From Patescibacteria group bacterium (GTDB lineage: Bacteria > Patescibacteriota > Minisyncoccia > UBA6257 > GWB1-50-10): a stretch of DNA of 35,648 nucleotides. The notes beneath the pieces are model-generated. The model ran no database searches, was not told the DNA's origin, and saw nothing but the letters and a program-made list of their open reading frames with translations. Both the position numbers and the translations under genes were made by a program. Shown here in pieces: positions 9,944 through 22,958 of this stretch (the stretch's first letter is position 1; every line of letters starts with the position of its first letter). The DNA lies in contig JBBTVZ010000006.1 in assembly GCA_038062995.1 (NCBI GenBank), positions 1-35,648 on the forward strand, written 5' to 3'.

Positions 9944-11677
9944 ATGATTCCACGACTAGTAAGAACGCCCAAAAGGGCGGATTCTAGAGTTACAAAAAAA
10001 ATAGACGAAGAAACGGTGAGATTTTGCGCGCTTGGAGGCCTTGAAGAAATCGGGCGCAATATGATGTTCTTTGAATATCGCGATGAAATATTAGTCATAG
10101 ACGCCGGCCTTCAATTCCCGGCGCAAGAAACTCCCGGCATTGATTACATTATTCCGAACACGGAATATCTGGAGGGCAAAAAAGGAAATATAAAAGGCAT
10201 TATTATAACGCACGCCCACTACGACCATATCGGCGCGATTCCGCATATACTTGAAAAACTTGGCAATCCTCCGATTTACACGACAATCCTGACAAAAGAA
10301 GTTATCATGCGCAGACAGGAAGATTATAGAAACTCGCCCAAGCCGATCTTTGTGATAGTAAAGGGAGGAGAAACTCACAAATTCGGACAATATTTCTCGG
10401 TATCTTTCTTTGATGTATTCCACAATGTGCCGGACGGCATCGGGTCGGTAATACATACGCCAATTGGAAATATTCTCCACCCCGGCGAATTTAAATTTAA
10501 CTATGACAACGACGGGAAACCGAAAAATTTGGATATTTGGAAAAAAGTCGGAGAAGGAGGGGTTCATACGCTTCTCCTGGACTCAACAGGAGCGGAAACA
10601 CCGGGATTTTCCGTGTCAGAACGCATTGTAGAAGCAGAACTTGAAAAAACATTTAGAGCCGCAAAAGGAAGAATTCTTGTTGGGACGTTTGCTTCGCTTC
10701 TCGACAGGCTTGGAGAAATTATAAAAATCGCTGAAAAACTCGGGCGCAAAGTCGCGATTAGCGGCCTTTCAATGAAAACGAATATGCAAATCGTGCAGAA
10801 TCTCGGATATTTGAAATTTGAAAAAGGCACAATAATTCCGCTCGAAGACATAGGAAAATATCACGACGAAAAACTTCTGATACTATGCACCGGCGCCCAA
10901 GGAGAATCAAAAGGAAGCTTAATGCGCATCGCAAACGGAGAACATAAGCAAATTAGAGCAAGACCAGGAGACACGATAATTCTCTCATCTTCAGTAATTC
11001 CCGGAAACGAAATGAGCGTGCAAAATCTAAAGGATAACCTCGCCAGGCAAGGCGCTATCATATATCACTATAAGATGCTTGATATCCACTCATCCGGACA
11101 TGCCGCGCAAGAAGAACTTAAAATGGTTATGACGCTTACAAAGCCAAGGTTTTTTATACCGATTCACGGCTACTACTTCATGCGGCAACGCAACGCGAAA
11201 CTCGCGGAAGAAGTGTTGGGATTGAAACCGGAAGAAATAATCCTCTCTGATAATGGGCTTGTAATTGAAATGAATAAAAACTCCGTTCGTATAACAAATG
11301 AACAGCTCCCAGCTTATTATGTCATGGTTGACGGATTAGGCGTCGGCGACGTCGGCGAAATAGTGCTTCGCGACCGCCTTACCCTCTCGCAGGAAGGGAT
11401 GCTTGTGATTATCGCGACAGTAAGCAAGCAGGGCGGAAAAATGCTCAAGAATCCTGATATTATATCGCGCGGATTTATCTACTTAAAAGAAAACCAGGAA
11501 TTATTGGACGAAATCCGCAGAAAAATTCGCGGCATCATCGGCCGCATCCCACATGGGCATCACCAGTCGCTCGACGCCGACTACATAAAAACGCTTATCC
11601 GCGACCAAATCGGACAATTCTTGTATACTAAGACGAAGCGAAGACCGATGGTTCTGCCGGTGGTAATCGAAGTATAA
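9944..11677 (+). CDS. rnj: Ribonuclease J (metallo-beta-lactamase / beta-CASP)
   Basis: 577 aa. HAHYDHIG motif, the LLLDSTG and HSSGHA blocks, and a C-terminal domain typical of RNase J. Confidence 0.85.
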   Translation: MIPRLVRTPKRADSRVTKKIDEETVRFCALGGLEEIGRNMMFFEYRDEILVIDAGLQFPAQETPGIDYIIPNTEYLEGKKGNIKGIIITHAHYDHIGAIPHILEKLGNPPIYTTILTKEVIMRRQEDYRNSPKPIFVIVKGGETHKFGQYFSVSFFDVFHNVPDGIGSVIHTPIGNILHPGEFKFNYDNDGKPKNLDIWKKVGEGGVHTLLLDSTGAETPGFSVSERIVEAELEKTFRAAKGRILVGTFASLLDRLGEIIKIAEKLGRKVAISGLSMKTNMQIVQNLGYLKFEKGTIIPLEDIGKYHDEKLLILCTGAQGESKGSLMRIANGEHKQIRARPGDTIILSSSVIPGNEMSVQNLKDNLARQGAIIYHYKMLDIHSSGHAAQEELKMVMTLTKPRFFIPIHGYYFMRQRNAKLAEEVLGLKPEEIILSDNGLVIEMNKNSVRITNEQLPAYYVMVDGLGVGDVGEIVLRDRLTLSQEGMLVIIATVSKQGGKMLKNPDIISRGFIYLKENQELLDEIRRKIRGIIGRIPHGHHQSLDADYIKTLIRDQIGQFLYTKTKRRPMVLPVVIEV

Positions 11678-11680
11678 ATT

Positions 11681-12667
11681 ATGAAACCAATCTTAGTTTC
11701 AGGAATTCAGCCAACTGGAAAACTTCATCTTGGAAATTATCTTGGCGCGCTAAAAAATTTTGTTGAGCTTCAAAATTCGGGAAAATACGAGTGTTACTTT
11801 TTTGTTGCCGATCTCCACTCACTCACTAAAGATTGCGAACCGAAAGAAAGGCAAAAACGGACACTGGATGTCGCGTTGGATTTTCTCGCTGCGGGCATTG
11901 ACCCCAAAAAATCTGTCGTATTTATACAATCGCAAATTCCGGCGCATTCCGAGCTCACGTGGATTTTAAACACCATTACGCCGTTCGGCGAACTCCGCAG
12001 AATGACGCAGTTCAAAGAAAAAGCCGGTTCCGAAGAAGCGATAACCACAAATGTCGGTCTTTTTGATTATCCTGTCCTTATGGCTGCCGATATTTTCCTT
12101 TATGACGCGGCTTTTGTCCCGATTGGAGACGACCAGCTTCAGCACCTTGAACTCACCCGCACGCTCGCGCGAAAATTCAACGCAAAATTCGGTGAAACAT
12201 TTCTGGAACCCAAGGCACTGTTAACCCCAGCGCCTAGGATAATGAGCTTGGATAACCCGACAAAGAAAATGTCCAAGTCTCAGCCGGAAGGAAGTATTTT
12301 TATTGACGACTCGCCGGCAACAATAAGAGAAAAGATAAAGCGTGCAGTAACTGACTCATATAAGACAACCGCCTACGACCCCAAGAACCGCCACGGCATT
12401 TCAAATCTTGTGCTTATCTATTCTGCAATGAGCGGTATTTCGATTGATAAAGTTATAGAGCAATCCGCCGGAAAAAAATATTCAGAATTCAAAGAAGAGC
12501 TTGCGAAAATCGTAATAAAATCTCTCGCCCCGTTTCAGGCAAAAAAGAAAAAACTTTCCGCGGACGCAAAAAGAGTGTCTTCCGCGCTCGCGTCAGGCAA
12601 TAAAATTGCAAACTCGGTTGCCGGCAAAAAATTACTGGAGATAAAGAAAAAGATTGGTTTGATATAA
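11681..12667 (+). CDS. trpS: Tryptophan--tRNA ligase
   Basis: 328 aa. SGIQPTGKLHLGNYLG (HIGH-type) and KMSKS motifs, plus the GDDQLQHLELTR block. Confidence 0.9.
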   Translation: MKPILVSGIQPTGKLHLGNYLGALKNFVELQNSGKYECYFFVADLHSLTKDCEPKERQKRTLDVALDFLAAGIDPKKSVVFIQSQIPAHSELTWILNTITPFGELRRMTQFKEKAGSEEAITTNVGLFDYPVLMAADIFLYDAAFVPIGDDQLQHLELTRTLARKFNAKFGETFLEPKALLTPAPRIMSLDNPTKKMSKSQPEGSIFIDDSPATIREKIKRAVTDSYKTTAYDPKNRHGISNLVLIYSAMSGISIDKVIEQSAGKKYSEFKEELAKIVIKSLAPFQAKKKKLSADAKRVSSALASGNKIANSVAGKKLLEIKKKIGLI

Positions 12668-12678
12668 TACGCAAATTG

Positions 12679-12707
12679 AAAAGCTCCCTAATTATGGGGG
12701 AGCTTTT
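12679..12707. terminator. Bidirectional hairpin terminator between trpS and the convergent small membrane-protein operon
   Basis: AAAAGCTCCC...GGGAGCTTTT, a 10-bp stem flanked by A and T runs. It overlaps the last codons of the minus-strand ORF. Confidence 0.55.
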
Positions 12708-12988
12708 AAAATTTCATTTTCCCTTCTTCGGTCCTTTCTGAATATAATGAACATTGAAATGCAAGAAGCTACAAACAGCAGCAAAAAAAGCCCGAAAAAA
12801 CCTGCAATGTAACCAGCGACTACGGACACGGCCTGGTAAAATCCCCAGATAAAGGAAACTAACACAAAAGAAACTGCGGCTATTATTAACAATGCCGTCC
12901 TTCTCCCGTTTACCTCTGGCCGCGGTCCTGAGCGCCAGATCACAGTGGCAAAAGCACCGATGATCGCAGCCACTAAAAAAAATTTCAA
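12692..12988 (-). CDS. Small membrane protein (about 3 TM helices), unknown function
   Basis: 98 aa, TTG start with AAGGAGGG about 10 nt upstream. Last gene of a three-gene coupled set. Confidence 0.55.
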   Translation of the reverse strand: MKFFLVAAIIGAFATVIWRSGPRPEVNGRRTALLIIAAVSFVLVSFIWGFYQAVSVVAGYIAGFFGLFLLLFVASCISMFIIFRKDRRRENEILKAPP

Positions 12989-12992
12989 TACA

Positions 12993-13103
12993 TCAGTCCC
13001 TCCTTACGTCTCTTTCGTGAATCATTTTACTTGCAGTGAAACCAGAAATTACACTCACCGCACAATACAACAATATGATCGCGCCAAGAATATAAATAAT
13101 CAT
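12993..13103 (-). CDS. 36-aa single-TM micro-protein (below the ORF-track size cut-off)
   Basis: ATG preceded by AGGAGG at 6-nt spacing. Translation is MIIYILGAIILLYCAVSVISGFTASKMIHERDVRRD, with a TGA stop. It sits between two small membrane-protein genes with gaps of 11 and 4 nt. Confidence 0.5.
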   Translation of the reverse strand: MIIYILGAIILLYCAVSVISGFTASKMIHERDVRRD

Positions 13104-13114
13104 TTACGCCTCCT

Positions 13115-13339
13115 CTAGCTTATAAAGTACACCAAACAAACTATTTCCCCGACAACCCCACCAATAATGAGCATCATTCCAGGAAAAATCCCTGTTATAC
13201 ATATTTCAGCAGGACCTTCCATGGTAACATTTCCGATGCCTAAACTATCGCACAAAATACAGCGATGGAAAAAGCGCACGCGTTTGATGCCATAGGATAT
13301 CGCTGTAAGGCACAGTATTGCAATGAATGCGGCTCCCAT
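13115..13339 (-). CDS. Small membrane protein (2 TM helices), unknown function
   Basis: I moved the start to the second ATG (MGAAFIAIL...). The first listed ATG is part of ATGGAGG, which is a good RBS 9 nt upstream of the second ATG. Confidence 0.55.
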   Translation of the reverse strand: MGAAFIAILCLTAISYGIKRVRFFHRCILCDSLGIGNVTMEGPAEICITGIFPGMMLIIGGVVGEIVCLVYFIS

Positions 13340-13421
13340 TTTTCGTACCTCCATATATTAATTTTTCAATAGATTTCCTGATTAAAGAGTACCACGGACG
13401 TGGCCTGGCGTCAATAATTGT

Positions 13422-16400
13422 TTAGATTTTTCTTACACCAATCCAAAGCTGTGTATTTTCAAACGTCGTGTCGAGTTCGGCTAAAAATTTTTTCTCTCGG
13501 CGAGGAATAATATCTTTTGCATTCACTTCTCTGAGAATCACGTCATCATATTTGCGCGTCACGCCGTCAAGCTCGCCCTGCGCGTCGATCATAACAACAA
13601 TCTTATCCTTAGGTTCCAATTTCGCGCTTTGGCGCAAATCCTGAATCATGCGTACAAGCTCGCGCACAAGCCCTTCCTCGCGCAATTCAATTGTTACATT
13701 CGTATCAAGCTCAATTTCATCCTTAATATTTGAATCTACAACAACCTTCTTCACATTTACCTCGTCTGCTAAAACCTCAAGCAGCTCGCTGGTGATTTTG
13801 ATTTTTGTCCGCCGGCTGGCGGATTGATTTTTGATTTTGAGCGTAGCGAGTGGTTGGCGCACCTTAATTCCCGCTTCGGCCCGCTTTGCGAGCGCAATAC
13901 TTGCAAGCCGGCGGATTTCTGCCATTTTTGCTAATAGTTTTGAACTTTGAGATTTGAGATTTGAGATTACTACCGGCCAATTATCCAAATGAACCGACTC
14001 TATTTTTCCGTGTTCGAATGACTTATAAAGCATGTCGGCAAAAAACGGCGTGAACGGGGCGATGAGTTTTGAGAGTTCAATTAGAACATAACCAAGAGTC
14101 ATAGACGCTTTTTTGTGGTCGTTTCTTCCTCCTACTGATTGGTCGGGACGCTGAAATCTCCTGCGGGACCGGCGGATATACCACCGCGACAAATCTTCTA
14201 CAAAATCCTGAATGACGCGCGCCGCATCCCCTATCTCATAGGCATCGAGTAATTTCGTTGCTTGAGAAACCGTTTCGTTTAATCTCGCCACAACCCACAC
14301 ATCCAATACGTTCCGCGACTTTGGCTGCTTTGATATTTGGATTTTGACATTTGGATTTTCCGTTATTCCATACGTCTTCCAAAAAACAAACGAATTGTAT
14401 GCGAGAAGAATGAATTGGCGCATTACTTTACCGAAATCCGTCTCATCAATTCTTTTAGGCTCGCCTGGCGGGTTCATTGTGTAGAAATGCCACCGCACAG
14501 CGTCAATGCCATACTTTTTCGCCATCTCCCACGGGTCAATGATATTTCCCTTTGATTTGGACATTTTCTGCCCGTTTTTATCCAAGATGTGTCCGAGGGA
14601 AATAACATTGCGGTACGGCTCGCCTCGGCCTAAAAGCGTCGAGATGGCTAGAAGCGTATAGAACCACCCGCGCGTCTGGTCAACTGCTTCACAGATATAT
14701 TCCGCAGGAAAATCCAGCGAGTCCTTGTTTTCAAATGGCCAGTGCGCTTGAGCGAACGGCATGGCGCCGGAATCAAACCAGCAATCAAGCACATCGGGAA
14801 TTCTTTTCATGGTTCCTTTCCTGCATTTCGGACACTTGAATTTCACATTATCAATATATGGTTTATGAATATCACAACCACCAGATGCGTTGCGCGGAAA
14901 TTTTAAAAACTCGCCGCCAATTACTTCTGCATTAGCAATAAAATCTATATATGACGCTTTTTTATGTCTCACAGACTCTTCATCAGACCATCCGTTTAAA
15001 ATACTCTCCCCCATCCAGATAGGATATTCATGACTAATAAGCAGTATTGTCTTTCCAGAATATTTCTTTTCAAAATCCAAAATAAGATCGTAAACACGCG
15101 TGCGTACATCAGTAAGCGTCTCTCCATTTGGCGCAGGCTTTGTAAATTTTTCAATATCGGACGTGTAATAATTTCCATAAAATTCTTGGCTTCGCCCATG
15201 AAAATCGCCAACATCAATTTCACGAAGCCTTTTATCAAGCACTACTTTTGTATTAAGAATCTTTTCAAAAATCTGCGCTGTTTCTTTCGCGCGCGTGATA
15301 TCCGAACTCACAATACAATCGATTTTTTGTTCTTTCGCGAGCTTCTTGGCCACGTGTTCAACTTGGGTAACGCCTTTGAGTGTCAGATGATGTTTAAGGT
15401 CGGGCAACGCGCTGCAGACTCGCAGTTTGTTGTTCTGCGCCTCGCCGTGCCGCACAAAAAGATAGCGGTTTCGTTTCTTCTTCGTTTCTTGGAGCGAGAT
15501 GAGTTCCTGGATGCTTCCCACAGCGTGCGTTTCGCCGCACGCGCCGCACACCCAAATCGGAAGAGGCGTTCCCCAATACCGCTCGCGCGAAATTGCCCAA
15601 TCCTTTGCTTCTTTGAGCCACTCGCCAAACCGTCCATTACGGAGATGTTCCGGAATCCATCCGATTCGATTATTTGCCGAAATAAGCTCTTTCTGAAGTT
15701 TGCTCATCGCGATGAACCACGAGTCGCGAGCGTAATAGAGTAATGGCGAATCGCACCGCCAGCAAAACGGATATTCGTGTGTATACTGCTCGGTCTTCAA
15801 TAAAAGATTTTTACTCTCAAGGTATTTTAATATTTTTACTTCCGTATCTTTCGCCTTCACATAGAGTCCGGCGAGCACCGGCACATCTTTTGTAAACTTT
15901 CCGCGCTCATCAACGGTATGATGCTCCGGCAAACCGACTTTCTTTCCGAGATTATAGTCGTCTTCTCCGTACATGACTGCTGTATGTACCACGCCGGTTC
16001 CGTCAGTAGTCGTTACAAAATCAGCAGGGTAGATTTTGTATGCCGTCGGTTTCTGAAGCGGTTTTATATCAAAAAGCGGTTCATAAGAAAGCCCGACTAA
16101 TTGAGAGTCTTTTATTTTCTGCCCTGTGTTTTCCAAACCAAGAACGCTCCCTCGCACGCCGGCGTAAATCAATTGTTCTCCGTCTTTTTCAGTCAGGACG
16201 TATCCAATATCCTTCCCCACCGCGAGCGCGACATTCCCCGGCAGCGTCCATAGTGTCGTTGTCCACGCGAGAATGTAAGTTTTGTCATTGGTTGTGAAAT
16301 CCCCCGCTTTACCCTGAGCCTGCTGAAGGGCGACTTTCTGTCCCGGCTTTAATCTAAACTTGATGTACACAGACGTGTCTTCTGTCTCCTTATATCCTTG

Positions 16401-16985
16401 CGCAACCTCATGTGACGAAAGCACCGTTCCGCACCGCGTGCACCATGGCACAACTTTGTGCCCTTTATAAAACAATTTTTTCTTCCAAACTTCTTTCAGA
16501 ATGCTCCACACTGATTCCATATACCTATTGTCATAGGTGATGTATGGATGCTTGAGATCAAGCCAAAACCCGATGCGCTCGGTAAGTTTTTCCCACTCGT
16601 CCTTGTATTTCCACACTGACTCTTTGCATTTTGCATTGAATTCAGCGATGCCGTATTGCTCAACTTCTTTTTTCGACTTCAGTCCAAGCGCTTTCTCTAT
16701 TTCAATTTCAACCGGAAGCCCGTGAGTGTCCCACCCGCTTTTGCGCGGCACATAAAATCCGCGCATCGTTTTGTAACGAAGTACAATATCTTTAAAAACG
16801 CGCGCAATGACATGGTGTAATCCGGGACGCCCATTCGCCGTAGGCGGCCCTTCGTAAAACACGAATTTCTTTCCGCGAGCGCGGTTTTTCTCAAGCGACT
16901 TCTCAAAAATTTTATTCGTTTTCCAAAACTCAAGCACCTTCTCCTCTATCTCGGGAAGAGAAAATTGCTTTATATGGCGCAACAT
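13422..16985 (-). CDS. ileS: Isoleucine--tRNA ligase, oversized (1187 aa) with an internal histidine-phosphatase domain
   Basis: [13 protein letters not shown] (HIGH-type), [11 protein letters not shown] (editing domain), [36 protein letters not shown] and KMSKSKGN. Single uninterrupted ORF. Confidence 0.92.
   Translation of the reverse strand: [1187 protein letters not shown]
13794..13837. repeat. Heptad-periodic T-rich arrays flanking a GC hairpin, in frame inside ileS
   Basis: GATTTTG ATTTTTG - TCCGCC GGCT GGCGGA - TTGATTT TTGATTT. On the coding strand this encodes ..[14 protein letters not shown].. Confidence 0.6.
13938..13965. repeat. Four tandem heptamers TTTGAAC TTTGAGA TTTGAGA TTTGAGA, in frame inside ileS
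   Basis: Direct reading. It encodes ..[10 protein letters not shown].. on the minus strand. Confidence 0.7.
14329..14363. repeat. Five tandem heptamers (TTTGATA TTTGGAT TTTGACA TTTGGAT TTTCCGT), in frame inside ileS
   Basis: Direct reading. It matches 21 of 24 nt of the intergenic array at 27816-27839 and encodes ..[11 protein letters not shown].. Confidence 0.7.
14976..15470 (-). other. Histidine-phosphatase (phosphoglycerate-mutase superfamily) domain embedded in IleRS (about aa 506-670)
   Basis: [12 protein letters not shown] (R512-H513-G-E), [35 protein letters not shown] and ILLISHEYP (H652). Motif order and spacing are typical of His_Phos_1 enzymes such as GpmB/CobC. Confidence 0.75.
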
Positions 16986-17033
16986 AAGTAATTAATCCTA
17001 TAGTAGCTGAAATCCGCTTCGTTTTCCATTCTG

Positions 17034-17984
17034 GTGCTGTATAATAAAACAATGCTTATCATCGGCACGATACTTGCAATAGTAATTCTATTCTTTCTTC
17101 TCGGCAAATCCGCCGACATTGTAGTTACTCAAATTCGCACATTGGGACACCGCTTCGGCATTCCCCTTTCATTTCTAGGCATTGTTCTCGGCCTTTTAAC
17201 TATGCTTCCGGAACTTTCAATTGGAGTAAACGCCGTAATTGAAAATATTCCAACGGTTTCATTGGGAAACATCTGGGGAGGAGTAATTGTTATTATTGGG
17301 CTCATATTTGGAACAAGTCTTCTGCTTAACCGCCGGATAACAACGGATGGAAATATCTGGCACATACTCCCGATTTTCGCTTTCATACTGCTTTCATTCA
17401 TTTTCGGATTAGACGGGCTTATTAGCGAGACGGACGGACTATTGTTTATACTCATATATTTGATTTTCCTCTCGGTTATTTATACAAGATTCAGAAAATA
17501 TGAAAAACCGCCGGAAAATGTAAAGCATAAAAAACTAAGCAAAGTTGTTATTCATACAGTTATGGGCGTCATAGCAGTCGTGATTCTGGCAAAAATCATC
17601 GTTTCACTCTCGGTTGAATTGTTACAAGCCTTTGAAATACCGGTGTTCATAATAGGGCTCCTTATGTTTTCAATAGGTACGAATCTTCCTGAAATCGTCG
17701 TAACTATCCGTTCATGGCGAAAACATATAAAAGAGCTATCAACGGGAAATCTCATCGGGTCCGCGATGGCAAGTCCGATGATTATAGGGATTCTTGCTTT
17801 TCTAAAACCGATTCCGGTAGCGGTTGATAAATCTTTTTATATTACTGCGGTATTTGTCGCCATTCTTTCTACGGCTTTTTTAATTTTCTACAAAACAGGA
17901 AAGCGACTTACGAACAAGGAGGGCGCTATTCTTATCTCTATTTACGCGCTTTTTGTAATATCCCAATTTCTATTCGGTATATAA
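17034..17984 (+). CDS. Na+/Ca2+ exchanger (CaCA, YrbG-like) family membrane protein
   Basis: 316 aa, about 10 TM helices. Two alpha-repeat-like motifs (LGNIWGGVIVIIGLIFG and GTNLPEIVVTIRS). GTG start at 17034, with an alternative ATG at 17052. Confidence 0.75.
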   Translation: MLYNKTMLIIGTILAIVILFFLLGKSADIVVTQIRTLGHRFGIPLSFLGIVLGLLTMLPELSIGVNAVIENIPTVSLGNIWGGVIVIIGLIFGTSLLLNRRITTDGNIWHILPIFAFILLSFIFGLDGLISETDGLLFILIYLIFLSVIYTRFRKYEKPPENVKHKKLSKVVIHTVMGVIAVVILAKIIVSLSVELLQAFEIPVFIIGLLMFSIGTNLPEIVVTIRSWRKHIKELSTGNLIGSAMASPMIIGILAFLKPIPVAVDKSFYITAVFVAILSTAFLIFYKTGKRLTNKEGAILISIYALFVISQFLFGI

Positions 17985-18008
17985 TAGCGAACGAATAGAT
18001 AAGGACTA

Positions 18009-19742
18009 TTACATTTTCTTTGGTGTTTTAACGCCGAGAAGAGTCAATCCGTTCCTTAAAATACTTGCGACAATTTGAATAAGTCCGAGGCGCGCTGCGC
18101 GGCGGGCAGAATTATTATCTTTCAAAATCGGCGTCGTTTCATAAAAACGGTTTGCAGTCGTCGCAAGTTCGTAAAGATAGAGAGCGAGGTTATTGGTGTA
18201 AAGCGTCTCTGCGGAAGTAAGGACTACATGCGGAAACTCAAGCGCTTTACGCATAAGCGCAAGGTCATTATCGGCGGTAAGCTTTGAGAAATCGGGTTGA
18301 TTTTTTCCGCGCGACTTGCCGACTATCCGTAAAAGCCGCACGCAAGCGTATTGAAGATACGGCGCGCTGTCGCCGGTAAAATCAAGCATGTGTTTCCAAT
18401 TAAATACGATGTCGGAGTTTCGGTTCTCGCGAAGGTCATTGTATTTCAAAGCGCCAACGCCGATAACGCTTGCGGTCAAGTCCTTTTCTTTTGAGGAAAG
18501 TTTTGAGTACTTATCATCAATCGCCTTGCGCGTCTCGCGCACCATGCTTTCAATTAATTCATCAAGAGCGACCACCAACCCGCCTCGCGTTGAAAGTTTT
18601 TTATGGTTTTCCCCGAGCATGAGCCCGAACTTAACATGAGCAAGCTCGGCATTATTCCAAGAAAGCTTTTTTGCAACCGCGAATAGCTGTTCAAAATGAA
18701 GCGACTGTTCATTGGAAACGACATAGAGGATTTTTGCAGGCTTATATTTTCGTATGCGGTGCCGCAAACTCGCGATGTCGCGCGTGAGATAAATACTCGC
18801 GCCGTCTGACTTTTGAATAAGCGCCGGCGGAAGCTTTTCTTCATCTAACGGCACAATCACCGCTCCCTCGCTGTTTTTTGCGATTCCTTTCGTTTTTAGC
18901 TCCAGAACAATTCCCTGAAGATCTTTTTCGTACGCGCTCTCGCCCGTCCAAACATCAAAGCGAATATCAAGAAATTTGTATATGCGCTTGTATTCAATAA
19001 GCGATTCGTCGCGAAACCATTTCCACAATTTTCTGTTTTCTTTGTCGCCCGCCTCCAACTTCTTAAATTCTTCCTGCCCGCGCGCTTCAAGCGACGGATT
19101 TTTTGCCATCTCGTTATGAAACCTTACATAAAGATGAAGGAGTGTTTCAATGGGGTCTTTCTCTACCTCTTTCTTGCTTCCCCAGAGTTTGTATGCGGCG
19201 ATAAGCTTTCCAAATTGTGTTCCCCAGTCTCCGATATAATTCCAGCGGATAACTTTATAGCCGGCAAATTCGTAAATATTCGCGAGCGCATCGCCGATAA
19301 TAGTTGAACGGATATGTCCGGCGTGCATCCGTTTTGCTATATTCGGCTGGGAATATTCAATAATGACTTTCTTCCCCTTCCCTATTTTACTTCGCCCGAA
19401 ATTTTTCTCGTCTTTCAAAATATCTTGGAACGCTCCCTGAATCGCTTTTGGCTTTATCCATATATTTATAAATCCCGGGGACACTGCCTCAACCCGTTCA
19501 AATAATTCCGCTTGCCAGAACGGTCGCTTCGCGACTGTTTTAGGGGGCGCGGATTCCAAAAGTTTTGTCGCTATCCTTTTCGCCTCCTCCATTGGCGCAA
19601 CTCCCTTCTGCTTCGCAATCCTAAACGCGATATTCGTGCTGTAATGCCCCTGCGTATCGTTCTCCGGCACAGAAAGCGAAATATCCATGCCCTTGGGAAT
19701 AATGCTCTTAATTTTCGCGGTTATTTTTTCCCGAAGCGTCAT
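18009..19742 (-). CDS. argS: Arginine--tRNA ligase
   Basis: 577 aa. IEYSQPNIAKRMHAGHIRSTIIGDAL (HIGH-type), an N-terminal Arg_tRNA_synt_N-like segment and a C-terminal DALR-type anticodon-binding region. Confidence 0.9.
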   Translation of the reverse strand: MTLREKITAKIKSIIPKGMDISLSVPENDTQGHYSTNIAFRIAKQKGVAPMEEAKRIATKLLESAPPKTVAKRPFWQAELFERVEAVSPGFINIWIKPKAIQGAFQDILKDEKNFGRSKIGKGKKVIIEYSQPNIAKRMHAGHIRSTIIGDALANIYEFAGYKVIRWNYIGDWGTQFGKLIAAYKLWGSKKEVEKDPIETLLHLYVRFHNEMAKNPSLEARGQEEFKKLEAGDKENRKLWKWFRDESLIEYKRIYKFLDIRFDVWTGESAYEKDLQGIVLELKTKGIAKNSEGAVIVPLDEEKLPPALIQKSDGASIYLTRDIASLRHRIRKYKPAKILYVVSNEQSLHFEQLFAVAKKLSWNNAELAHVKFGLMLGENHKKLSTRGGLVVALDELIESMVRETRKAIDDKYSKLSSKEKDLTASVIGVGALKYNDLRENRNSDIVFNWKHMLDFTGDSAPYLQYACVRLLRIVGKSRGKNQPDFSKLTADNDLALMRKALEFPHVVLTSAETLYTNNLALYLYELATTANRFYETTPILKDNNSARRAARLGLIQIVASILRNGLTLLGVKTPKKM

Positions 19743-19838: not shown

Positions 19839-20408
19839 TTAGCGGAGAATCATTCTAATCGGGACTGTCTTTTTAGAAAAAAAACAACCATCGCTTTCCC
19901 ACGAATGCGAGAGGTCAGTTGGGCTACCTAAAAAAAGTCCACTAAAGTACCATATGCGTTCTTTAGGAAACCAGCTTATTCTCACCGCAACATGGTACCC
20001 ACTTTTTAACCGCACACAGAAAATATTTGTATCGCCAACAATATTACTATCGCCCACGAGAAGCGCGCCCTTGTTACCATTCTTCTGTTTTTTGAGAAGC
20101 GTACAAATGATTGTTAAGAACTCTCCGATTGAGAAGGTGCTAGTAACAGATAGAATTGAGTCATATGTCGTAGACTTCGCAAGTAAGTTTTTTGTGAGTG
20201 TGCCCGTAAATGCCCTGATTAAATTTGGAATTTCCGGCACGATCAATTCTTTAAAACCTCTGTCAAACTCAGCTTTTATACGAAATTTCTCGAAACTAAA
20301 AGTTTTTGGAAGCGCGAATTTTCTGTAAAATTTCTCGGGAAAAAGTGTGTTTTTCCCAAAAGATTTAGTTTTTACTTGAACATCAGCGATAAATTTCATA
20401 GTTTCCAT
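19839..20408 (-). CDS. Orphan hypothetical protein, 189 aa, no motif recognised
   Basis: Intact ORF with a GAGGA RBS, its own near-consensus promoter and its own terminator. It looks soluble (no TM segment). Confidence 0.6.
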   Translation of the reverse strand: METMKFIADVQVKTKSFGKNTLFPEKFYRKFALPKTFSFEKFRIKAEFDRGFKELIVPEIPNLIRAFTGTLTKNLLAKSTTYDSILSVTSTFSIGEFLTIICTLLKKQKNGNKGALLVGDSNIVGDTNIFCVRLKSGYHVAVRISWFPKERIWYFSGLFLGSPTDLSHSWESDGCFFSKKTVPIRMILR

Positions 20409-20550: not shown

Positions 20551-21009
20551 ATGATAATCTTAAATCCAATGGCGGTTTTTGCAATAAATAAGCGCGCATC
20601 GTTTGATTACAGCATCCTTGAGATATTTGAGGCAGGATTAGAGTTAAAAGGTTTTGAAGTGAAATCAATTGTTGCCGGACGGGCAAACTTATCAGGCGCG
20701 CACGCAACCCTGAAAGGAAACGAGATGTGGCTTCTGAATCTTGATATTCCCCCATACCAACCGAGCAACACGCCGGAAATGTATGACTCAAAACGCACGC
20801 GAAAACTTCTCCTGAACCGTGCGGAAATAAATCAGCTTATCGGGCGCACGAAAGAGAAAGGATTGACGCTAATACCACTCAAGCTGTATAATAAGCACGG
20901 CAGGATTAAGGTTGAAATCGGTCTCGCGCGGAGCAAGAAAAAGGGAGATAAGCGCGAAGCGATTAAAAAGCGCGACGTTGAGCGCGAGATCCGAAAATCA
21001 ATCTCTTAG
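20551..21009 (+). CDS. smpB: SsrA-binding protein SmpB
   Basis: NKRASFDYSILEIFEAGLELKGFEVKS, the RTRKLLL block and a basic C-terminal tail. It sits directly upstream of tmRNA. An alternative start is the ATG at 20569. Confidence 0.9.
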   Translation: MIILNPMAVFAINKRASFDYSILEIFEAGLELKGFEVKSIVAGRANLSGAHATLKGNEMWLLNLDIPPYQPSNTPEMYDSKRTRKLLLNRAEINQLIGRTKEKGLTLIPLKLYNKHGRIKVEIGLARSKKKGDKREAIKKRDVEREIRKSIS

Positions 21010-21028: not shown

Positions 21029-21447
21029 GGGGGCGCATGTTTCGACAGAGGATGAGCTTCAGTGTGAAGCGAGTTGAGCTGATTGTCTCGTATCCTTCGA
21101 CTTCGCTCAGGATACCCTGAGCCTGCCGAAGGGTAAATCCAATCAAAATATAACTGCTAACAAAACTGTTGCAGTACCAGCTTTTGCTTATGCGTAAGAT
21201 TGGCTTTGCCCGTCCGTAGCTTTAGTGAAAGAGGGTATTCTCTCCCTTATTTAATCGGGAGGGCATCGGTTCCCAAGGTTCCATAGGGAAATAACCGGTG
21301 TAATACATGGTACTCGCCGATTGTAACACTCGTCTTTTGTGCAATCGGTTAAATCTAAAGACGACCTTCGTTCTTCATTTGAGGAACTACACTCGTACAC
21401 TTTGCCTAAAGACACTTCTGGACGAGGGTTCAATCCCTCCGCCTCCA
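21029..21447 (+). ncRNA. ssrA: Transfer-messenger RNA (tmRNA)
   Basis: 5' GGGGGCGCATGTTTCGACAGAGG and 3' GGACGAGGGTTCAATCCCTCCGCCTCCA form the tRNA-like domain (acceptor GGGGGCG/CGCCTCC). The internal tag frame GCT AAC AAA ACT GTT GCA GTA CCA GCT TTT GCT TAT GCG TAA (21156-21197) gives ANKTVAVPAFAYA. CCA is not encoded (CAA follows). Confidence 0.9.
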
Positions 21448-21487
21448 CAAAATAAAACACCCGCTATTAGAGTGGCTTTTTTACTTC

Positions 21488-22419: not shown

Positions 22420-22448
22420 TTGACTCTGCCCGCAAAGTGCCATATTAT
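22420..22448 (+). promoter_or_regulatory. Sigma70 promoter of the infC-rpmI-rplT operon
   Basis: TTGACT (22420-22425), a 17-nt spacer, then TATTAT (22443-22448). Confidence 0.55.
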
Positions 22449-22958
22449 ACTTTCATCCACACAAAGATAAACAATCAGATAACGGCGCCGGAACTCCGCG
22501 TAATAGACGAGAACGGGGCAAACCTCGGAGTTTTAAAGCGGGATGAAGCATTGCGCCTCGCTAAAGAACGCGGTTTTGACCTTGTGGAAATAGCCAGTAC
22601 GGCAAACCCGCCTGTTGCGAAAATCATCAGTTTTGATAAGTTCAGATATCAAAAAGAAAAAGAGGAGAAAAAACAGTATGCCGCGCAGAATAAGGTAAAA
22701 GAATTAAAACAAATTCGCATTACTCCGAGAGCCGCTAAAAACGACCTGGAAATAAAAATACGAAAGATTGAGGAATTCCTAAAAGAAGGCCACAAGGTGG
22801 AAATTGGAATCTTCTTGCGCGGCAGGGAAAAAGCAAATCGTGACTGGGCTCTTAAGAAAATCAACGAATTCTTACAGATGATAAAAACACCGCACGTAGT
22901 AACGCTTCCACCGCGTCCGGGCGGAAGAGGGTTCATATCGCAAGTAACGAAAAAATAA
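22437..22958 (+). CDS. infC: Translation initiation factor IF-3 (5' boundary uncertain)
   Basis: INNQITAPELRVIDENGANLGVLKRDEALRLAKERGFDLVEI and the C-domain KELKQIRITP...IKIRKIEEFL. The listed GTG start lies inside the predicted promoter, so the real start is probably a downstream in-frame ATC (22455) or ATA (22467). Confidence 0.85.
   Translation: MPYYTFIHTKINNQITAPELRVIDENGANLGVLKRDEALRLAKERGFDLVEIASTANPPVAKIISFDKFRYQKEKEEKKQYAAQNKVKELKQIRITPRAAKNDLEIKIRKIEEFLKEGHKVEIGIFLRGREKANRDWALKKINEFLQMIKTPHVVTLPPRPGGRGFISQVTKK

What the first reader, a model, noticed from the sequence alone, without database searches (positions are those of the whole stretch)
14835..15536. Histidine-phosphatase (PGM-superfamily) domain inserted inside isoleucyl-tRNA synthetase, splitting its CxxC...CxxC zinc knuckle
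The ileS ORF is uninterrupted and has all class-Ia landmarks: PGLHHV, WTTTLWTLPGN, KMSKS. Between the first cysteine pair (PIWVC480-G-A-C483) and the second (KFKC718-P-K-C721) there are 234 residues. IleRS sequences I remember (Thermus/Staphylococcus type) have a few tens there. Residues ~506-670 read as a complete histidine-phosphatase fold with its catalytic residues retained: YLFVR512-H513-GE, SSDITRAKETA, LREIDVGDFHG, PNGETLTDVRTRV and ILLISH652-E. At 1187 aa the protein is well beyond the ~920-1045 aa of characterised bacterial IleRS (E. coli is 938 aa). A catalytically competent-looking phosphatase/mutase module sits next to the aminoacylation core. I do not know of this architecture being described. 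Possible roles are all speculative: removing a phosphorylated by-product or signalling nucleotide made by the synthetase, healing 2'/3'-phosphate or cyclic-phosphate tRNA ends before charging, or regulatory coupling to phosphometabolite levels.
Basis: partly seen in the sequence, partly recalled or inferred. Interest (0 to 1): 0.82.

Follow-up and report, generated by a model that had tools for sequence, protein, structure and literature searches.

The report
Active phosphatase embedded inside isoleucyl-tRNA synthetase
An essential protein-synthesis enzyme (isoleucyl-tRNA synthetase) of an ultra-small CPR bacterium carries a complete, catalytically intact phosphatase inside one of its surface loops, and this undescribed pairing recurs across hundreds of CPR lineages as a neighbouring gene or at three insertion sites, which points to an unknown working link between the two enzymes.

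Summary
The minus-strand ORF 13422-16985 encodes a 1187-aa type-2 IleRS (TIGR00392, 862 bits). About 205 residues (aa 498-703) replace the ~10-residue loop between the two Cys pairs of the CP3 zinc knuckle. They form a complete branch-1 histidine phosphatase (PF00300, E = 8e-31; AF2 pLDDT 87; Foldseek hits PspA, GpgP, PhoE, CobC).

It is not an assembly artefact or a one-off. At least 145 protein clusters (50% identity) and 42 Patescibacteria species genomes have the same architecture. The catalytic residues R512/H513/R565/E589/H652 are essentially invariant.

New findings:
- In sister CPR lineages the same phosphatase is a free ~190-aa gene, always between argS and ileS. It sometimes overlaps the ileS start.
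- In other IleRS the domain sits at two further sites (~aa 750 and ~aa 880).
- Some IleRS carry two intact copies.

No paper, NCBIfam model or source annotation describes this.

My best reading (about 0.5) is an active small-substrate phosphomonoesterase that selection keeps physically tethered to IleRS. Its substrate is unknown. The main rival (about 0.3) is a housekeeping phosphatase captured from the neighbouring gene with no mechanistic link.

Verdict: a new variant of a known kind, and of high interest.

The parts
13422..16985 (-). ileS ORF, 1187 aa: type-2 (Thermus/eukaryote-like) isoleucyl-tRNA synthetase carrying the inserted domain
   Evidence: ORF. TIGR00392 scores 862 bits against a cut-off of 621. 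PDB 1ile and 8c8w match at E about 1e-234. NCBI accession MEK7542734.1.
15567..16985 (-). IleRS N-terminal part (aa 1-473): first half of the Rossmann fold with the GLHH (HIGH-type) motif at 16812-16823, CP core, CP1 editing domain (WTTTLWTLPGN at 16233-16265), CP2, and the CP2-CP3 linker AKDWAISRERYWG (15570-15608)
   Evidence: The linker is homologous to the yeast IleRS element 'ARDWNVSRNRYWG', which lines the tRNA A76/reveromycin pocket (PMC7955072).
15537..15548 (-). First Cys pair of the CP3 zinc knuckle (C480-G-A-C483)
   Evidence: It aligns with the Tth 'CQAC'. The Tth CP3 contains a zinc-binding motif (PMC7191050).
14877..15494 (-). Inserted segment relative to T. thermophilus IleRS (aa 498-703). 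It corresponds to an entire free-standing phosphatase protein plus short linkers
   Evidence: The 1ile alignment breaks at query 497/704. Free-standing homologues P0007, P0008 and P0012-16 align end to end with it.
14979..15461 (-). His_Phos_1 (PF00300) domain core, aa 509-669
   Evidence: Pfam E = 8e-31. AF2 pLDDT is above 90 over most of the core. Foldseek matches PspA, GpgP, PhoE and CobC.
15447..15452 (-). Catalytic R512-H513 (RHG motif; H513 is the predicted phospho-accepting nucleophile)
   Evidence: R is present in 139/139 and H in 138/139 fused representatives. Both are present in every copy at sites A, B and C and in the free genes.
15291..15293 (-). R565, second phosphate-binding arginine (SSDITR motif)
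   Evidence: 146/146 conserved.
15219..15221 (-). E589, predicted general acid/base (LREID motif)
   Evidence: 134 Glu and 11 Asp among 146 sequences.
15030..15032 (-). H652, distal catalytic histidine (ISHE motif)
   Evidence: 147/148 conserved.
14823..14834 (-). Second Cys pair of the zinc knuckle (C718-P-K-C721)
14712..14753 (-). Loop AQAHWPFENKDSLD (aa 745-758). It is not occupied in this window, but it is alternative insertion site B for the same domain in other CPR IleRS (P0195, P0230, P0231)
14553..14567 (-). KMSKS signature loop (aa 807-811)
14322..14360 (-). Loop ENPNVKIQISKQP (aa 876-888) between the catalytic and anticodon-binding domains. It is not occupied here, but it is alternative insertion site C in P0195, P0228, P0230, P0259 and P0262
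   Evidence: In P0259, His_Phos_1 (733-899) lies between tRNA-synt_1 (48-688) and Anticodon_1 (918-1062).
13848..14303 (-). Anticodon-binding domain (PF08264, aa 895-1046), followed by the C-terminal DUF5915 domain
18009..19742 (-). argS (ArgRS), the conserved upstream neighbour. In related genomes the free-standing phosphatase gene sits between argS and ileS
   Evidence: Pfam result. Synteny across 82 loci. L082 gene map.

Best explanation
The gene encodes a working type-2 isoleucyl-tRNA synthetase. The zinc-knuckle loop of its CP3 subdomain hosts a complete, catalytically active branch-1 histidine phosphatase.

The phosphatase should work like its relatives. His513 attacks a terminal phosphoryl group and forms a phospho-histidine intermediate. 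Arg512, Arg565 and His652 hold the phosphate, and Glu589 acts as the acid/base. The net reaction is hydrolysis of a phosphomonoester. Its sequence and fold are closest to ~200-aa small-substrate phosphatases (PspA, GpgP, PhoE, CobC), not to phosphoglycerate mutases.

The module began as a separate gene lying between argS and ileS. It still exists in that form in sister CPR lineages. It was relocated whole into surface loops of IleRS: the CP3 loop as in this window, and in other lineages the CP3-to-Rossmann junction or the junction between the catalytic and anticodon-binding domains. Some IleRS carry two copies.

I infer that selection keeps this phosphatase physically tethered to IleRS because the two act together. 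The phosphatase would remove a phosphate from a small or nucleotide-like ligand that is made at, binds to, or blocks the aminoacylation site or the tRNA acceptor-end pocket. Candidates are a 2'/3'-phosphorylated tRNA A76 end or a nucleotide monophosphate.

Shown: the domain's identity, its intact catalytic set, the insertion points, the recurrence, the neighbour-or-fused pattern and the CPR restriction. Inferred: that the domain is enzymatically active, that tethering is selected, and the class of substrate. The actual substrate is unknown.
For: Identity and fold:
- PF00300 E = 8e-31.
- AF2 pLDDT 86.8.
- Foldseek top hits are GpgP, PspA, CobC, PhoE and the riboflavin HFP, with TM 0.70-0.77.
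- The best PDB sequence hit is PspA 4ij5.

IleRS is intact:
- TIGR00392 scores above its cut-off.
- The protein aligns over its full length to 1ile and 8c8w apart from the insert.

Purifying selection on catalysis:
- R512 139/139, H513 138/139, R565 146/146, E589 134 Glu + 11 Asp of 146, H652 147/148.
- The zinc cysteines are kept in only 66-82% of sequences.
- Against the closest relative (L001, Ca. Jorgensenbacteria) the insert is 82.5% identical, compared with 73-75% for the IleRS flanks.

Recurrence:
- 162 cluster representatives score E <= 1e-30. Among the best 148, which I aligned, 145 carry the domain, and the 52 full-length ones have a median length of 1174 aa.
- 42 of 80 GTDB species loci carry the domain inside IleRS, and all 80 are Patescibacteria.

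Fused-or-neighbour (Rosetta-stone) pattern:
- In 40 loci the homologue is a free ~190-230-aa gene. ArgRS lies upstream in 36 of these 40, and an uninterrupted ileS lies downstream on the same strand in 27 of 40.
- The two free genes closest to the window's insert abut ileS, with a 4-nt overlap in L082 and a 5-nt gap in L081.
- No locus has both states.

Repeated capture:
- There are three insertion sites (A 191 copies, B 3, C 5) and five two-copy proteins.
- Every copy keeps the full catalytic set, and the copies share only 30-45% identity with one another.
- No simple end-to-end fusion was seen among about 200 fused copies, although that is the easier genetic route.

Geometry hints:
- Site A lies in CP3, starting about 25 residues after the CP2-CP3 linker that lines the tRNA A76 pocket.
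- The entry-side spacing is fixed at 36-37 residues in 94 of 122 sequences, despite about 30% linker identity.
Against: - No substrate is identified and no experiment exists.
- The argS-[phosphatase]-ileS-recO block is deeply conserved in these CPR and also contains unrelated genes such as recO and smpB. Adjacency alone may therefore be inherited synteny rather than functional coupling.
- The three insertion sites are not obviously on one face of the enzyme. Site C lies at the start of the anticodon-binding domain. This argues for loose tethering rather than a precise cis geometry.
- The domain is on average electrically neutral (net charge about 0, pI about 6.6-6.8), so it has no generic RNA-binding surface.
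- The domain core evolves faster (mean pairwise identity 0.34) than the Rossmann core (0.49-0.52).
- Its closest characterised relatives are ordinary metabolic phosphatases.
- The genes between the free phosphatase and ileS are variable, and no conserved third partner was found.
- I could not obtain model coordinates, so the distance between the two active sites is unknown.
Confidence: 0.5

Rival explanations
1. Hitch-hiker. The domain is an ordinary housekeeping small-molecule phosphatase of these reduced genomes, for example a phosphoserine, sugar-phosphate or nucleotide phosphatase. It happened to be encoded next to ileS and was captured into tolerant surface loops of IleRS by local rearrangement. 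It works independently, and IleRS serves only as a constitutively expressed carrier.
For: - The closest sequence and fold relatives are metabolic phosphatases.
- The domain is electrically neutral.
- The free gene sits in a deeply conserved syntenic block with unrelated genes (smpB, argS, recO), so adjacency can be inherited.
- The insertion sites are spread over different parts of IleRS.
- Conservation of the catalytic residues is equally expected for any essential enzyme.
- CPR genomes are streamlined, which favours fusions (general knowledge).
Against: - Internal domain insertion is a rare event, yet it was fixed at three different loops of the same host protein.
- Two ancient copies (30-40% identical to each other) both keep all seven catalytic or structural residues. 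Simple redundancy would predict decay of one copy.
- The easy end-to-end fusion from the overlapping stop/start was never seen.
- Only IleRS acquired the domain. The equally adjacent ArgRS never did.
- The entry-linker length is tightly fixed.
Confidence: 0.3
2. Cis-acting protein phosphatase. The domain removes an inhibitory phosphate from IleRS itself, for example from a Ser of the KMSKS loop. It would thereby counter Ser/Thr kinases of the HipA/HipT type, which are known to switch off other class I synthetases.
For: - HipA phosphorylates GltX and HipT phosphorylates TrpS, which inactivates them (PMC8262856 and PMC6581861).
- Some branch-1 histidine phosphatases are protein phosphatases (SixA, PGAM5, Sts-1; general knowledge).
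- A cis-acting enzyme would explain tethering to IleRS at variable surface sites, and also the co-translated free form.
- The best PDB sequence hit is a phosphoserine phosphatase.
Against: - No kinase that targets IleRS is known.
- No kinase gene is conserved in the loci.
- The match to SixA is weak and partial (32.6 bits against a cut-off of 74.5).
- The structural neighbours are small-molecule enzymes with a cap subdomain.
- PspA acts on free phosphoserine, not on proteins.
Confidence: 0.08
3. Non-catalytic module. The domain has been co-opted as a structural prop or a phosphometabolite sensor that regulates IleRS allosterically, without turning substrate over.
For: Insertion modules in the CP3 region of class Ia synthetases often have structural or tRNA-binding roles (general knowledge). 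The zinc knuckle it interrupts is itself dispensable in many members.
Against: The nucleophile His and the acid/base Glu are invariant across more than 240 copies in all states, including the free-standing genes. That pattern is typical of catalysis, not of binding alone.
Confidence: 0.05
4. Artefact. The architecture is an assembly chimera or a gene-calling error that joins a phosphatase gene to ileS.
For: The window is a metagenome-assembled contig. The GC content of the insert (0.415) is slightly below that of the ileS flanks (0.45-0.47).
Against: - The same in-frame architecture, with the same insertion point, occurs in 42 independent species genomes and in at least 145 clusters at 50% identity.
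- A second cluster member at >= 90% identity, also 1187 aa (P0270), lies on another contig of 81,949 nt.
- The Jorgensenbacteria relative L001 is collinear across both junctions.
Confidence: 0.01

Closest known systems
Type-2 (Thermus/eukaryote-like) isoleucyl-tRNA synthetase, e.g. T. thermophilus IleRS (PDB 1ILE) and Priestia megaterium IleRS2 (PDB 8C8W)
   Same: The domain order is the same along the full length: Rossmann fold, CP core, CP1 editing, CP2, CP3 with CxxC...CxxC, KMSKS, anticodon-binding domain and C-terminal domain. The match is at E about 1e-234. The HIGH position reads GxHH, as in 8C8W.
   Different: About 205 residues forming a complete phosphatase replace the ~10-residue CP3 loop between Tth residues 478 and 488. 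No solved or described IleRS has a catalytic domain at this position.
Small branch-1 histidine phosphatases: PspA phosphoserine phosphatase (4IJ5), GpgP Rv2419c (4PZ9), PhoE (1H2E), CobC alpha-ribazole phosphatase (6E4B)
   Same: The fold is the same (TM 0.70-0.77). The size is the same (about 190-205 aa). The catalytic R-H...R...E...H set is the same.
   Different: Sequence identity is only 19-26%. The domain scores below the curated cut-off of every characterised equivalog. Its subfamily is confined to CPR and is always encoded either inside ileS or just upstream of it.
NCBIfam NF040702, 'isoleucine--tRNA ligase, N-acetyltransferase domain-containing' (ileS_w_GNAT)
   Same: It is a precedent for an IleRS that carries an extra, unrelated catalytic domain.
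   Different: The extra domain belongs to a different family (GNAT, not a histidine phosphatase). The window protein scores 306 bits against a cut-off of 1999, so it is not a member.
Bifunctional RNase H / CobC-like acid phosphatase (M. tuberculosis Rv2228c type, NCBIfam NF005567)
   Same: A branch-1 histidine phosphatase is fused to an enzyme that acts on nucleic acid. The insert matches its phosphatase half at E = 1.3e-22.
   Different: That protein is an end-to-end fusion with RNase H, not an insertion into a synthetase. The window protein scores 80.7 bits against a cut-off of 326, so it is not a member.
Insertion modules of class Ia synthetases (CP1 editing domain, CP3 variants, the LeuRS leucine-specific domain)
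   Same: An autonomous module is inserted into a loop of the Rossmann-fold catalytic domain and is tolerated by the synthetase. CP3 is known to vary in topology between IleRS types (PMC7191050).
   Different: The known modules bind or edit tRNA or aminoacyl-tRNA. None is a phosphomonoesterase. None is known to alternate between a free neighbouring gene and three different insertion sites.

Membership tests
Isoleucyl-tRNA synthetase (TIGR00392 ileS equivalog) | Whole-protein score above the curated cut-off | tested here: met
   862 bits against a cut-off of 621.4, matched in two stretches that flank the insert.
Isoleucyl-tRNA synthetase (TIGR00392 ileS equivalog) | Class I signature motifs (HIGH-type and KMSKS) and the CP1 editing domain with its Thr-rich motif | tested here: met
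   GLHH at aa 55-58, KMSKS at 807-811 and WTTTLWTLPGN at 241-251. The editing domain matches 1wk8 at E = 6.7e-27.
Isoleucyl-tRNA synthetase (TIGR00392 ileS equivalog) | Isoleucine-specific aminoacylation of tRNA-Ile | not testable with these tools
   This needs an enzyme assay.
Histidine phosphatase superfamily, branch 1 (Pfam PF00300) | Score above the Pfam gathering threshold | tested here: met
   107.7 bits against a cut-off of 21.7, E = 8e-31, aa 509-669.
Histidine phosphatase superfamily, branch 1 (Pfam PF00300) | Catalytic core RHG His nucleophile, second Arg, Glu acid/base and distal His | tested here: met
   R512, H513, R565, E589 and H652 are present here. They are 92-100% conserved in the family (E589 92% Glu, 99% Glu or Asp; the other four 99-100%).
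Histidine phosphatase superfamily, branch 1 (Pfam PF00300) | Alpha/beta fold of the superfamily | tested here: met
   The AF2 model has pLDDT 86.8. All 50 Foldseek matches listed are superfamily members (E from about 1e-13 to 2e-11 for the 50 listed); 315 matches in all have E <= 0.001.
Histidine phosphatase superfamily, branch 1 (Pfam PF00300) | Phosphomonoesterase or mutase activity | not testable with these tools
   This needs an enzyme assay.
Cofactor-dependent phosphoglycerate mutase (NF038349 dPGM_arch; PRK03482 GpmB) | Equivalog score above the cut-off | tested here: not met
   83.3 bits against 225, and 51.2 bits against 261. The fold neighbours are the ~200-aa phosphatases rather than the ~250-aa mutases.
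Phosphoserine phosphatase PspA (NF045917) | Equivalog score above the cut-off | tested here: not met
   65.4 bits against 350, although PspA 4ij5 is the best PDB sequence hit (E = 4.8e-9).
Alpha-ribazole phosphatase CobC (TIGR03162) | Equivalog score above the cut-off | tested here: not met
   65.2 bits against 162.9.
Phosphohistidine phosphatase SixA (TIGR00249) | Equivalog score above the cut-off | tested here: not met
   32.6 bits against 74.5, and the match covers only aa 510-578.
IleRS with GNAT domain (NF040702) | Model score above the cut-off, with a GNAT domain present | tested here: not met
   306 bits against 1999. Pfam finds no GNAT domain.
Known anti-phage defence proteins (PADLOC-DB) | Match to any defence-system model | tested here: not met
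   No hit for the insert, for the free homologue P0013 or for the whole protein.

The most novel reading that the evidence does not exclude
The embedded phosphatase is a new kind of synthetase-resident repair or clearance domain, comparable in logic to the CP1 editing domain. It would act in cis on a phosphorylated species at the aminoacylation site. That species could be a 2'/3'-(pyro)phosphorylated tRNA-Ile CCA end, a phosphorylated KMSKS-loop serine, or an inhibitory phospho-nucleotide. Removing the phosphate would keep IleRS or tRNA-Ile chargeable in CPR bacteria. Its wandering between a co-translated neighbouring gene and three insertion sites would then record selection for proximity to IleRS.
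Probability: 0.3. Interest if true: 0.9.

Novelty: new variant of a known kind. Interest (0 to 1): 0.72.

Why it matters
Aminoacyl-tRNA synthetases acquire extra domains only rarely. When they do, the domains have usually revealed new biology, such as editing, tRNA binding or signalling.

Here a catalytically intact phosphatase has been kept with IleRS across a large part of the Candidate Phyla Radiation in four configurations: a neighbouring gene and three insertion sites. Some proteins carry it in duplicate. That pattern is the classic signature of a functional partnership, yet no phosphate-removing step is known in isoleucine charging.

If the coupling is real, it would define a new auxiliary activity of a class I synthetase. 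It would also point to an unrecognised phosphorylated intermediate, damage product or inhibitor of translation in CPR bacteria, which cannot be cultured alone and whose physiology is largely inferred.

If the coupling is not real, this is still an unusually clear natural example of a whole enzyme being relocated repeatedly into loops of an essential protein. That is useful for protein engineering, because it shows that CP3 and the catalytic/anticodon junction tolerate 200-aa inserts. It is also useful for genome annotation, because NCBI currently downgrades these genes to 'class I tRNA ligase family protein'.

Tried and rejected
1. The first genome scan used an 8-sequence insert alignment (A2). 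A 4-sequence alignment (A3) worked.
2. The search for homologous proteins returned only hits shorter than 500 aa for the 276-aa query. It therefore could not show full-length architectures. The exhaustive representative search did.
3. I looked for a conserved third gene between the free phosphatase and ileS. The intervening genes are variable: a HIT gene in 2 loci, an AOX-like gene in 4, and the rest unrelated. No partner emerged.
4. I tested for a basic, RNA-binding-like surface by net charge and pI. The domain is neutral on average, which gives no support.
5. A PADLOC defence-system search found nothing.
6. Five literature searches for the architecture found no description, and one for CPR aaRS insertions in general returned four papers whose listed titles and abstracts do not concern this. 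Only open-access text was searched.
7. NJ trees of the domain copies and of the IleRS core show fused and unfused states interleaved and roughly congruent. The trees are too noisy, at 30-50% identity, to count events or to say whether the changes were fusions or fissions. I do not rely on them for direction.
8. An intein or mobile-element reading was rejected. There are no splicing or endonuclease motifs. The free gene sits at a fixed syntenic position. The catalytic phosphatase residues are conserved.
9. I did not predict the full-length structure. The tool returns no coordinates or PAE, so the docking question could not have been answered.
10. Whether the genome has a second ileS, another histidine phosphatase or a PGM could not be tested from a 35-kb window. 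No second copy of the domain is present in the window.


Full report
**1. The observation**

The window's minus-strand ORF 13422-16985 is uninterrupted and encodes 1187 aa. The finding's coordinates, 14835-15536, are exactly residues 484-717. That is the stretch between C480-G-A-C483 and C718-P-K-C721.

- Pfam places His_Phos_1 (PF00300) at aa 509-669, with E = 8e-31 and 107.7 bits against a gathering score of 21.7. The match lies between two halves of tRNA-synt_1 and is followed by Anticodon_1 and DUF5915.
- NCBIfam scores the protein as ileS (TIGR00392) at 862 bits, against a cut-off of 621.
- T. thermophilus IleRS (1ile) aligns to query 2-497 (chain 2-478) and to query 704-1040 (chain 488-821). 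So about 205 residues here replace a ~10-residue loop.
- An AlphaFold2 model of aa 470-704 is confident, with mean pLDDT 86.8 and pTM 0.82.
- All its best PDB fold matches are ~200-aa branch-1 histidine phosphatases: the mycobacterial hydrolases 6s2q and 6s2r, GpgP 4pz9, PspA 4ij5/4ij6, the riboflavin HFP 9mmh, CobC 6e4b and PhoE 1h2e. E is about 1e-13 and TM normalised to the target is 0.70-0.77.

**2. Where the insert sits in IleRS**

Two published IleRS structure papers help here.

- The zinc-binding motif of T. thermophilus IleRS lies in the CP3 subdomain. The CP3 subdomains of Candida and S. aureus IleRS lack it (PMC7191050).
- The CP2-CP3 linker 'ARDWNVSRNRYWG' of yeast IleRS forms part of the tRNA A76/reveromycin pocket (PMC7955072).

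The window's equivalent linker, AKDWAISRERYWG, is aa 460-472. The first Cys pair follows at 480-483. After one short helix (SIQELISL), the phosphatase begins.

The free-standing homologues align end to end with the insert, from their first residues (MNNKYF.LRHGEA) to their last beta-strand (GE.R.L). A whole protein was therefore inserted, not a fragment.

**3. It is a family, not a curiosity or a chimera**

An exhaustive search of 1.84 billion cluster representatives used a junction-spanning 276-aa query. It found 162 proteins with E <= 1e-30. Nearly all of the best 150 matched the whole query in one stretch.

- I aligned 148 of the listed representatives. Of these, 145 carry the domain.
- 108 of them have both IleRS flanks.
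- 52 are full-length, with a median length of 1174 aa.

A domain-only scan of one genome per GTDB species returned 80 loci, all from Patescibacteria/CPR MAGs. They include Jorgensenbacteria, Paceibacterota/Minisyncoccia, Sungbacteria, Campbellbacteria, Zambryskibacteria, Terrybacteria, Doudnabacteria and Moranbacteria. Some records carry evidently unreliable TPA labels.

The closest locus is a Ca. Jorgensenbacteria MAG (L001). It is collinear across both junctions. Its insert is 82.5% identical to the window's, compared with 73-75% for the flanking IleRS parts.

The window protein is NCBI MEK7542734.1, named only 'class I tRNA ligase family protein [Patescibacteria group bacterium]'. A second cluster member at >= 90% identity, also 1187 aa (P0270), lies on an 82-kb contig. 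Assembly chimerism is excluded.

**4. The catalytic machinery is under selection**

Across the representatives the conservation is as follows:

| Residue | Conserved |
|---|---|
| R512 | 139/139 |
| H513 | 138/139 |
| R565 | 146/146 |
| E589 | 134 Glu + 11 Asp of 146 |
| E622 | 148/148 |
| R630 | 146/148 |
| H652 | 147/148 |
| Zn-knuckle cysteines | 66-82% |

The mean pairwise identity of the phosphatase core among 51 full-length members is 0.34. That is lower than the Rossmann core (0.49-0.52) and similar to the peripheral IleRS domains (0.31-0.41). The linkers are at 0.20-0.30.

The domain scores below the curated cut-off of every characterised equivalog: dPGM, GpmB, PspA, CobC, SixA and the RNase H/acid phosphatase. 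It is therefore an uncharacterised subfamily, closest to small-substrate phosphomonoesterases.

**5. New finding: fused in some lineages, a neighbouring gene in others**

I classified the 80 genome loci, plus two contigs fetched for the closest free homologues.

- 42 loci have the domain inside IleRS.
- 40 loci have a free ~190-230-aa gene.

Among the 40 free-gene loci:

- The free gene lies directly downstream of argS in 36.
- An uninterrupted ileS follows on the same strand in 27. Its two halves are only about 100 nt apart, so it has a normal CP3.
- Of the other 13, 8 have short downstream flanks and 5 have no ileS within 6 kb.

The two free genes most similar to the window's insert (P0013 and P0007, about 43% identical) abut ileS. 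L082 has a 4-nt ATGA overlap and L081 has a 5-nt gap.

The surrounding block is conserved in both states and in the window itself: smpB(-) | argS(+) - [phosphatase] - ileS(+) - recO or trpS. In the window these genes are smpB at 20551-21009, argS at 18009-19742, ileS, and trpS at 11681-12667.

No locus has both a free and a fused copy. In fused genomes the argS-ileS gap can be as short as 28-87 nt, so the slot is empty.

**6. New finding: three insertion sites and double insertions**

Mapping each domain copy onto window numbering gives three sites.

| Site | Location | Copies |
|---|---|---|
| A | CP3 loop, as in this window | 191 |
| B | About aa 746-758, the loop joining CP3 to the second half of the Rossmann fold | 3 |
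| C | About aa 876-888, between the catalytic and anticodon-binding domains | 5 |

- P0259 has only site C and a normal CP3.
- P0195 and P0230 have B + C and no A.
- P0228 and P0262 have A + C.
- P0231 has A + B.

Pfam independently reports two His_Phos_1 stretches in the four two-copy proteins that were scanned (P0195, P0228, P0230, P0231). In P0259 it reports an unbroken tRNA-synt_1 followed by His_Phos_1 and then Anticodon_1.

Every copy at every site keeps the full catalytic set. The copies are only 30-45% identical to one another, so the doubles are old and both copies are maintained.

No end-to-end (N-terminal) fusion was seen among about 200 fused copies. That would have been the simplest route from an overlapping stop/start.

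In site-A proteins, the spacing from the residue after RYWG to the catalytic Arg is 36-37 residues in 94 of 122 sequences. The exit side varies from 42 to 69 residues apart from a single 36-residue outlier.

Rough NJ trees show the free/unfused and fused states interleaved in both the domain tree and the IleRS-core tree. The A+C and B+C forms cluster together. This suggests several state changes, but the trees are not reliable enough to count them or to give a direction.

**7. What it most likely is and does**

Shown:
- The IleRS is intact, and its CP3 loop carries a complete, selection-maintained histidine phosphatase of an uncharacterised, CPR-restricted subfamily.
- That subfamily is always encoded either in ileS or just upstream of it.

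Inferred from family knowledge:
- His513 forms a phospho-enzyme intermediate.
- R512, R565 and H652 bind the phosphoryl group, and E589 is the acid/base.
- The substrate is a phosphomonoester.

Inferred from comparative genomics, at about 0.5 confidence:
- Selection favours physical tethering to IleRS because the two enzymes act together.
- The supporting evidence is the repeated internal capture, the two maintained copies, the translationally coupled free form, the absence of capture by ArgRS, and the fixed entry-linker length.

The substrate is not identified. I rank the candidates in this order:
1. A nucleotide-like phosphomonoester at the acceptor-end or ATP pocket, for example a 2'/3'-phosphorylated tRNA end.
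2. A phospho-serine on IleRS, by analogy with the way HipA and HipT inactivate GltX and TrpS (PMC8262856, PMC6581861).

Evidence against coupling:
- The syntenic block is deeply conserved and includes unrelated genes, so adjacency may be inherited.
- The three sites are not obviously on one face of the enzyme.
- The domain is electrically neutral.
- No conserved third partner exists.
- The nearest characterised relatives are metabolic phosphatases.

The main rival, at about 0.3, is therefore a housekeeping phosphatase captured from next door with no mechanistic link. A purely structural or sensor role (about 0.05) fits poorly with an invariant nucleophile. An artefact is excluded.

**8. Comparison with what is known, and novelty**

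Both parent families are well known, and synthetases with extra modules are a known phenomenon. NCBIfam even has a model for an IleRS-GNAT fusion. However:

- No solved IleRS has a catalytic domain in CP3.
- No NCBIfam or PADLOC model covers this architecture.
- The sources name these proteins generically.
- Five full-text searches for the architecture found no description.

I rate it a new variant of a known kind. It is abundant in databases but apparently undescribed, and its evolutionary pattern is unusually informative.

Interest is 0.72. An aaRS specialist would be surprised by a conserved, intact phosphatase in IleRS at three sites. The question is directly testable with recombinant protein.

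**9. Limits**

- No coordinates or PAE were available, so the docking geometry is unknown.
- The taxonomic fraction of CPR carrying each state was not measured, because the genome scan was pattern-limited and capped at 80 loci.
- The rest of the genome is not in the window, so I could not check for a second ileS or for other phosphatases.
- The trees are approximate.

Noticed in passing
window 16812-16823 (-), aa 55-58: The HIGH signature of this IleRS reads G-L-H-H (GxHH) rather than HxGH. P. megaterium IleRS2 (8c8w) shows 'GVHH' at the same place in the alignment. From memory, this swapped motif has been linked to mupirocin hyper-resistance in IleRS2 (Brkic et al. 2023). I did not check how general it is among the CPR proteins.
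   Followed up: no
window 20551-21009 (+) and 21029-21450 (+): smpB is followed 20 nt later by the tmRNA gene (Rfam RF00023, 92.5 bits; tag peptide ANKTVAVPAFAYA). The two partners of trans-translation are adjacent here.
   Followed up: no
window 9944-19742: The neighbourhood is dense in translation and RNA genes: RNase J (9944-11677, +), TrpRS (11681-12667, +), IleRS, a Na/Ca-exchanger-family membrane protein on the opposite strand (17034-17984, +) and ArgRS (18009-19742, -). IF3 lies at 22437-22958 and a ClpB-like AAA+ protein at 24788-27289.
   Followed up: partly
window 15030-15743 (+): A 237-aa ORF runs antisense to ileS across the insert region, and a second, 84-aa ORF in another frame lies at 15383-15637 on the ileS strand. 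They are most likely spurious, given the strong coding signal of ileS.
   Followed up: no
L037 6578-7054 (+) and one other locus: A HIT-family gene (PF01230, E = 2.6e-15) lies between the free phosphatase gene and ileS in two Moranbacteria loci. HIT/HinT enzymes hydrolyse aminoacyl-adenylate-type compounds, so this may be relevant, but it is seen in only 2 loci.
   Followed up: partly
L046 6522-7316 (+) and three other loci: An alternative-oxidase-like gene (PF01786, E = 1.7e-10) occupies the space between the free phosphatase and ileS in 4 loci. This is unexpected in CPR genomes.
   Followed up: no
P0011 (fragment) and alignment A4: Some fused IleRS have lost one or both CxxC pairs of the CP3 zinc knuckle. 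The cysteines are kept in only 66-82% of sequences, while the phosphatase residues stay invariant. Zinc binding therefore appears dispensable once the domain is present.
   Followed up: partly
L081 about 1900-1990: The apparent split of ileS into 231-aa and 704-aa genes on this contig coincides with a run of N (translated as XXXX). It is an assembly gap and not a real split gene.
   Followed up: yes
window 19839-20408 (-) and 12692-12988 (-): Two ORFs have no Pfam match: a 189-aa ORF between argS and smpB, and a 98-aa predicted membrane protein downstream of trpS. A stretch of about 430 nt without a listed ORF separates the latter from the ileS stop.
   Followed up: no
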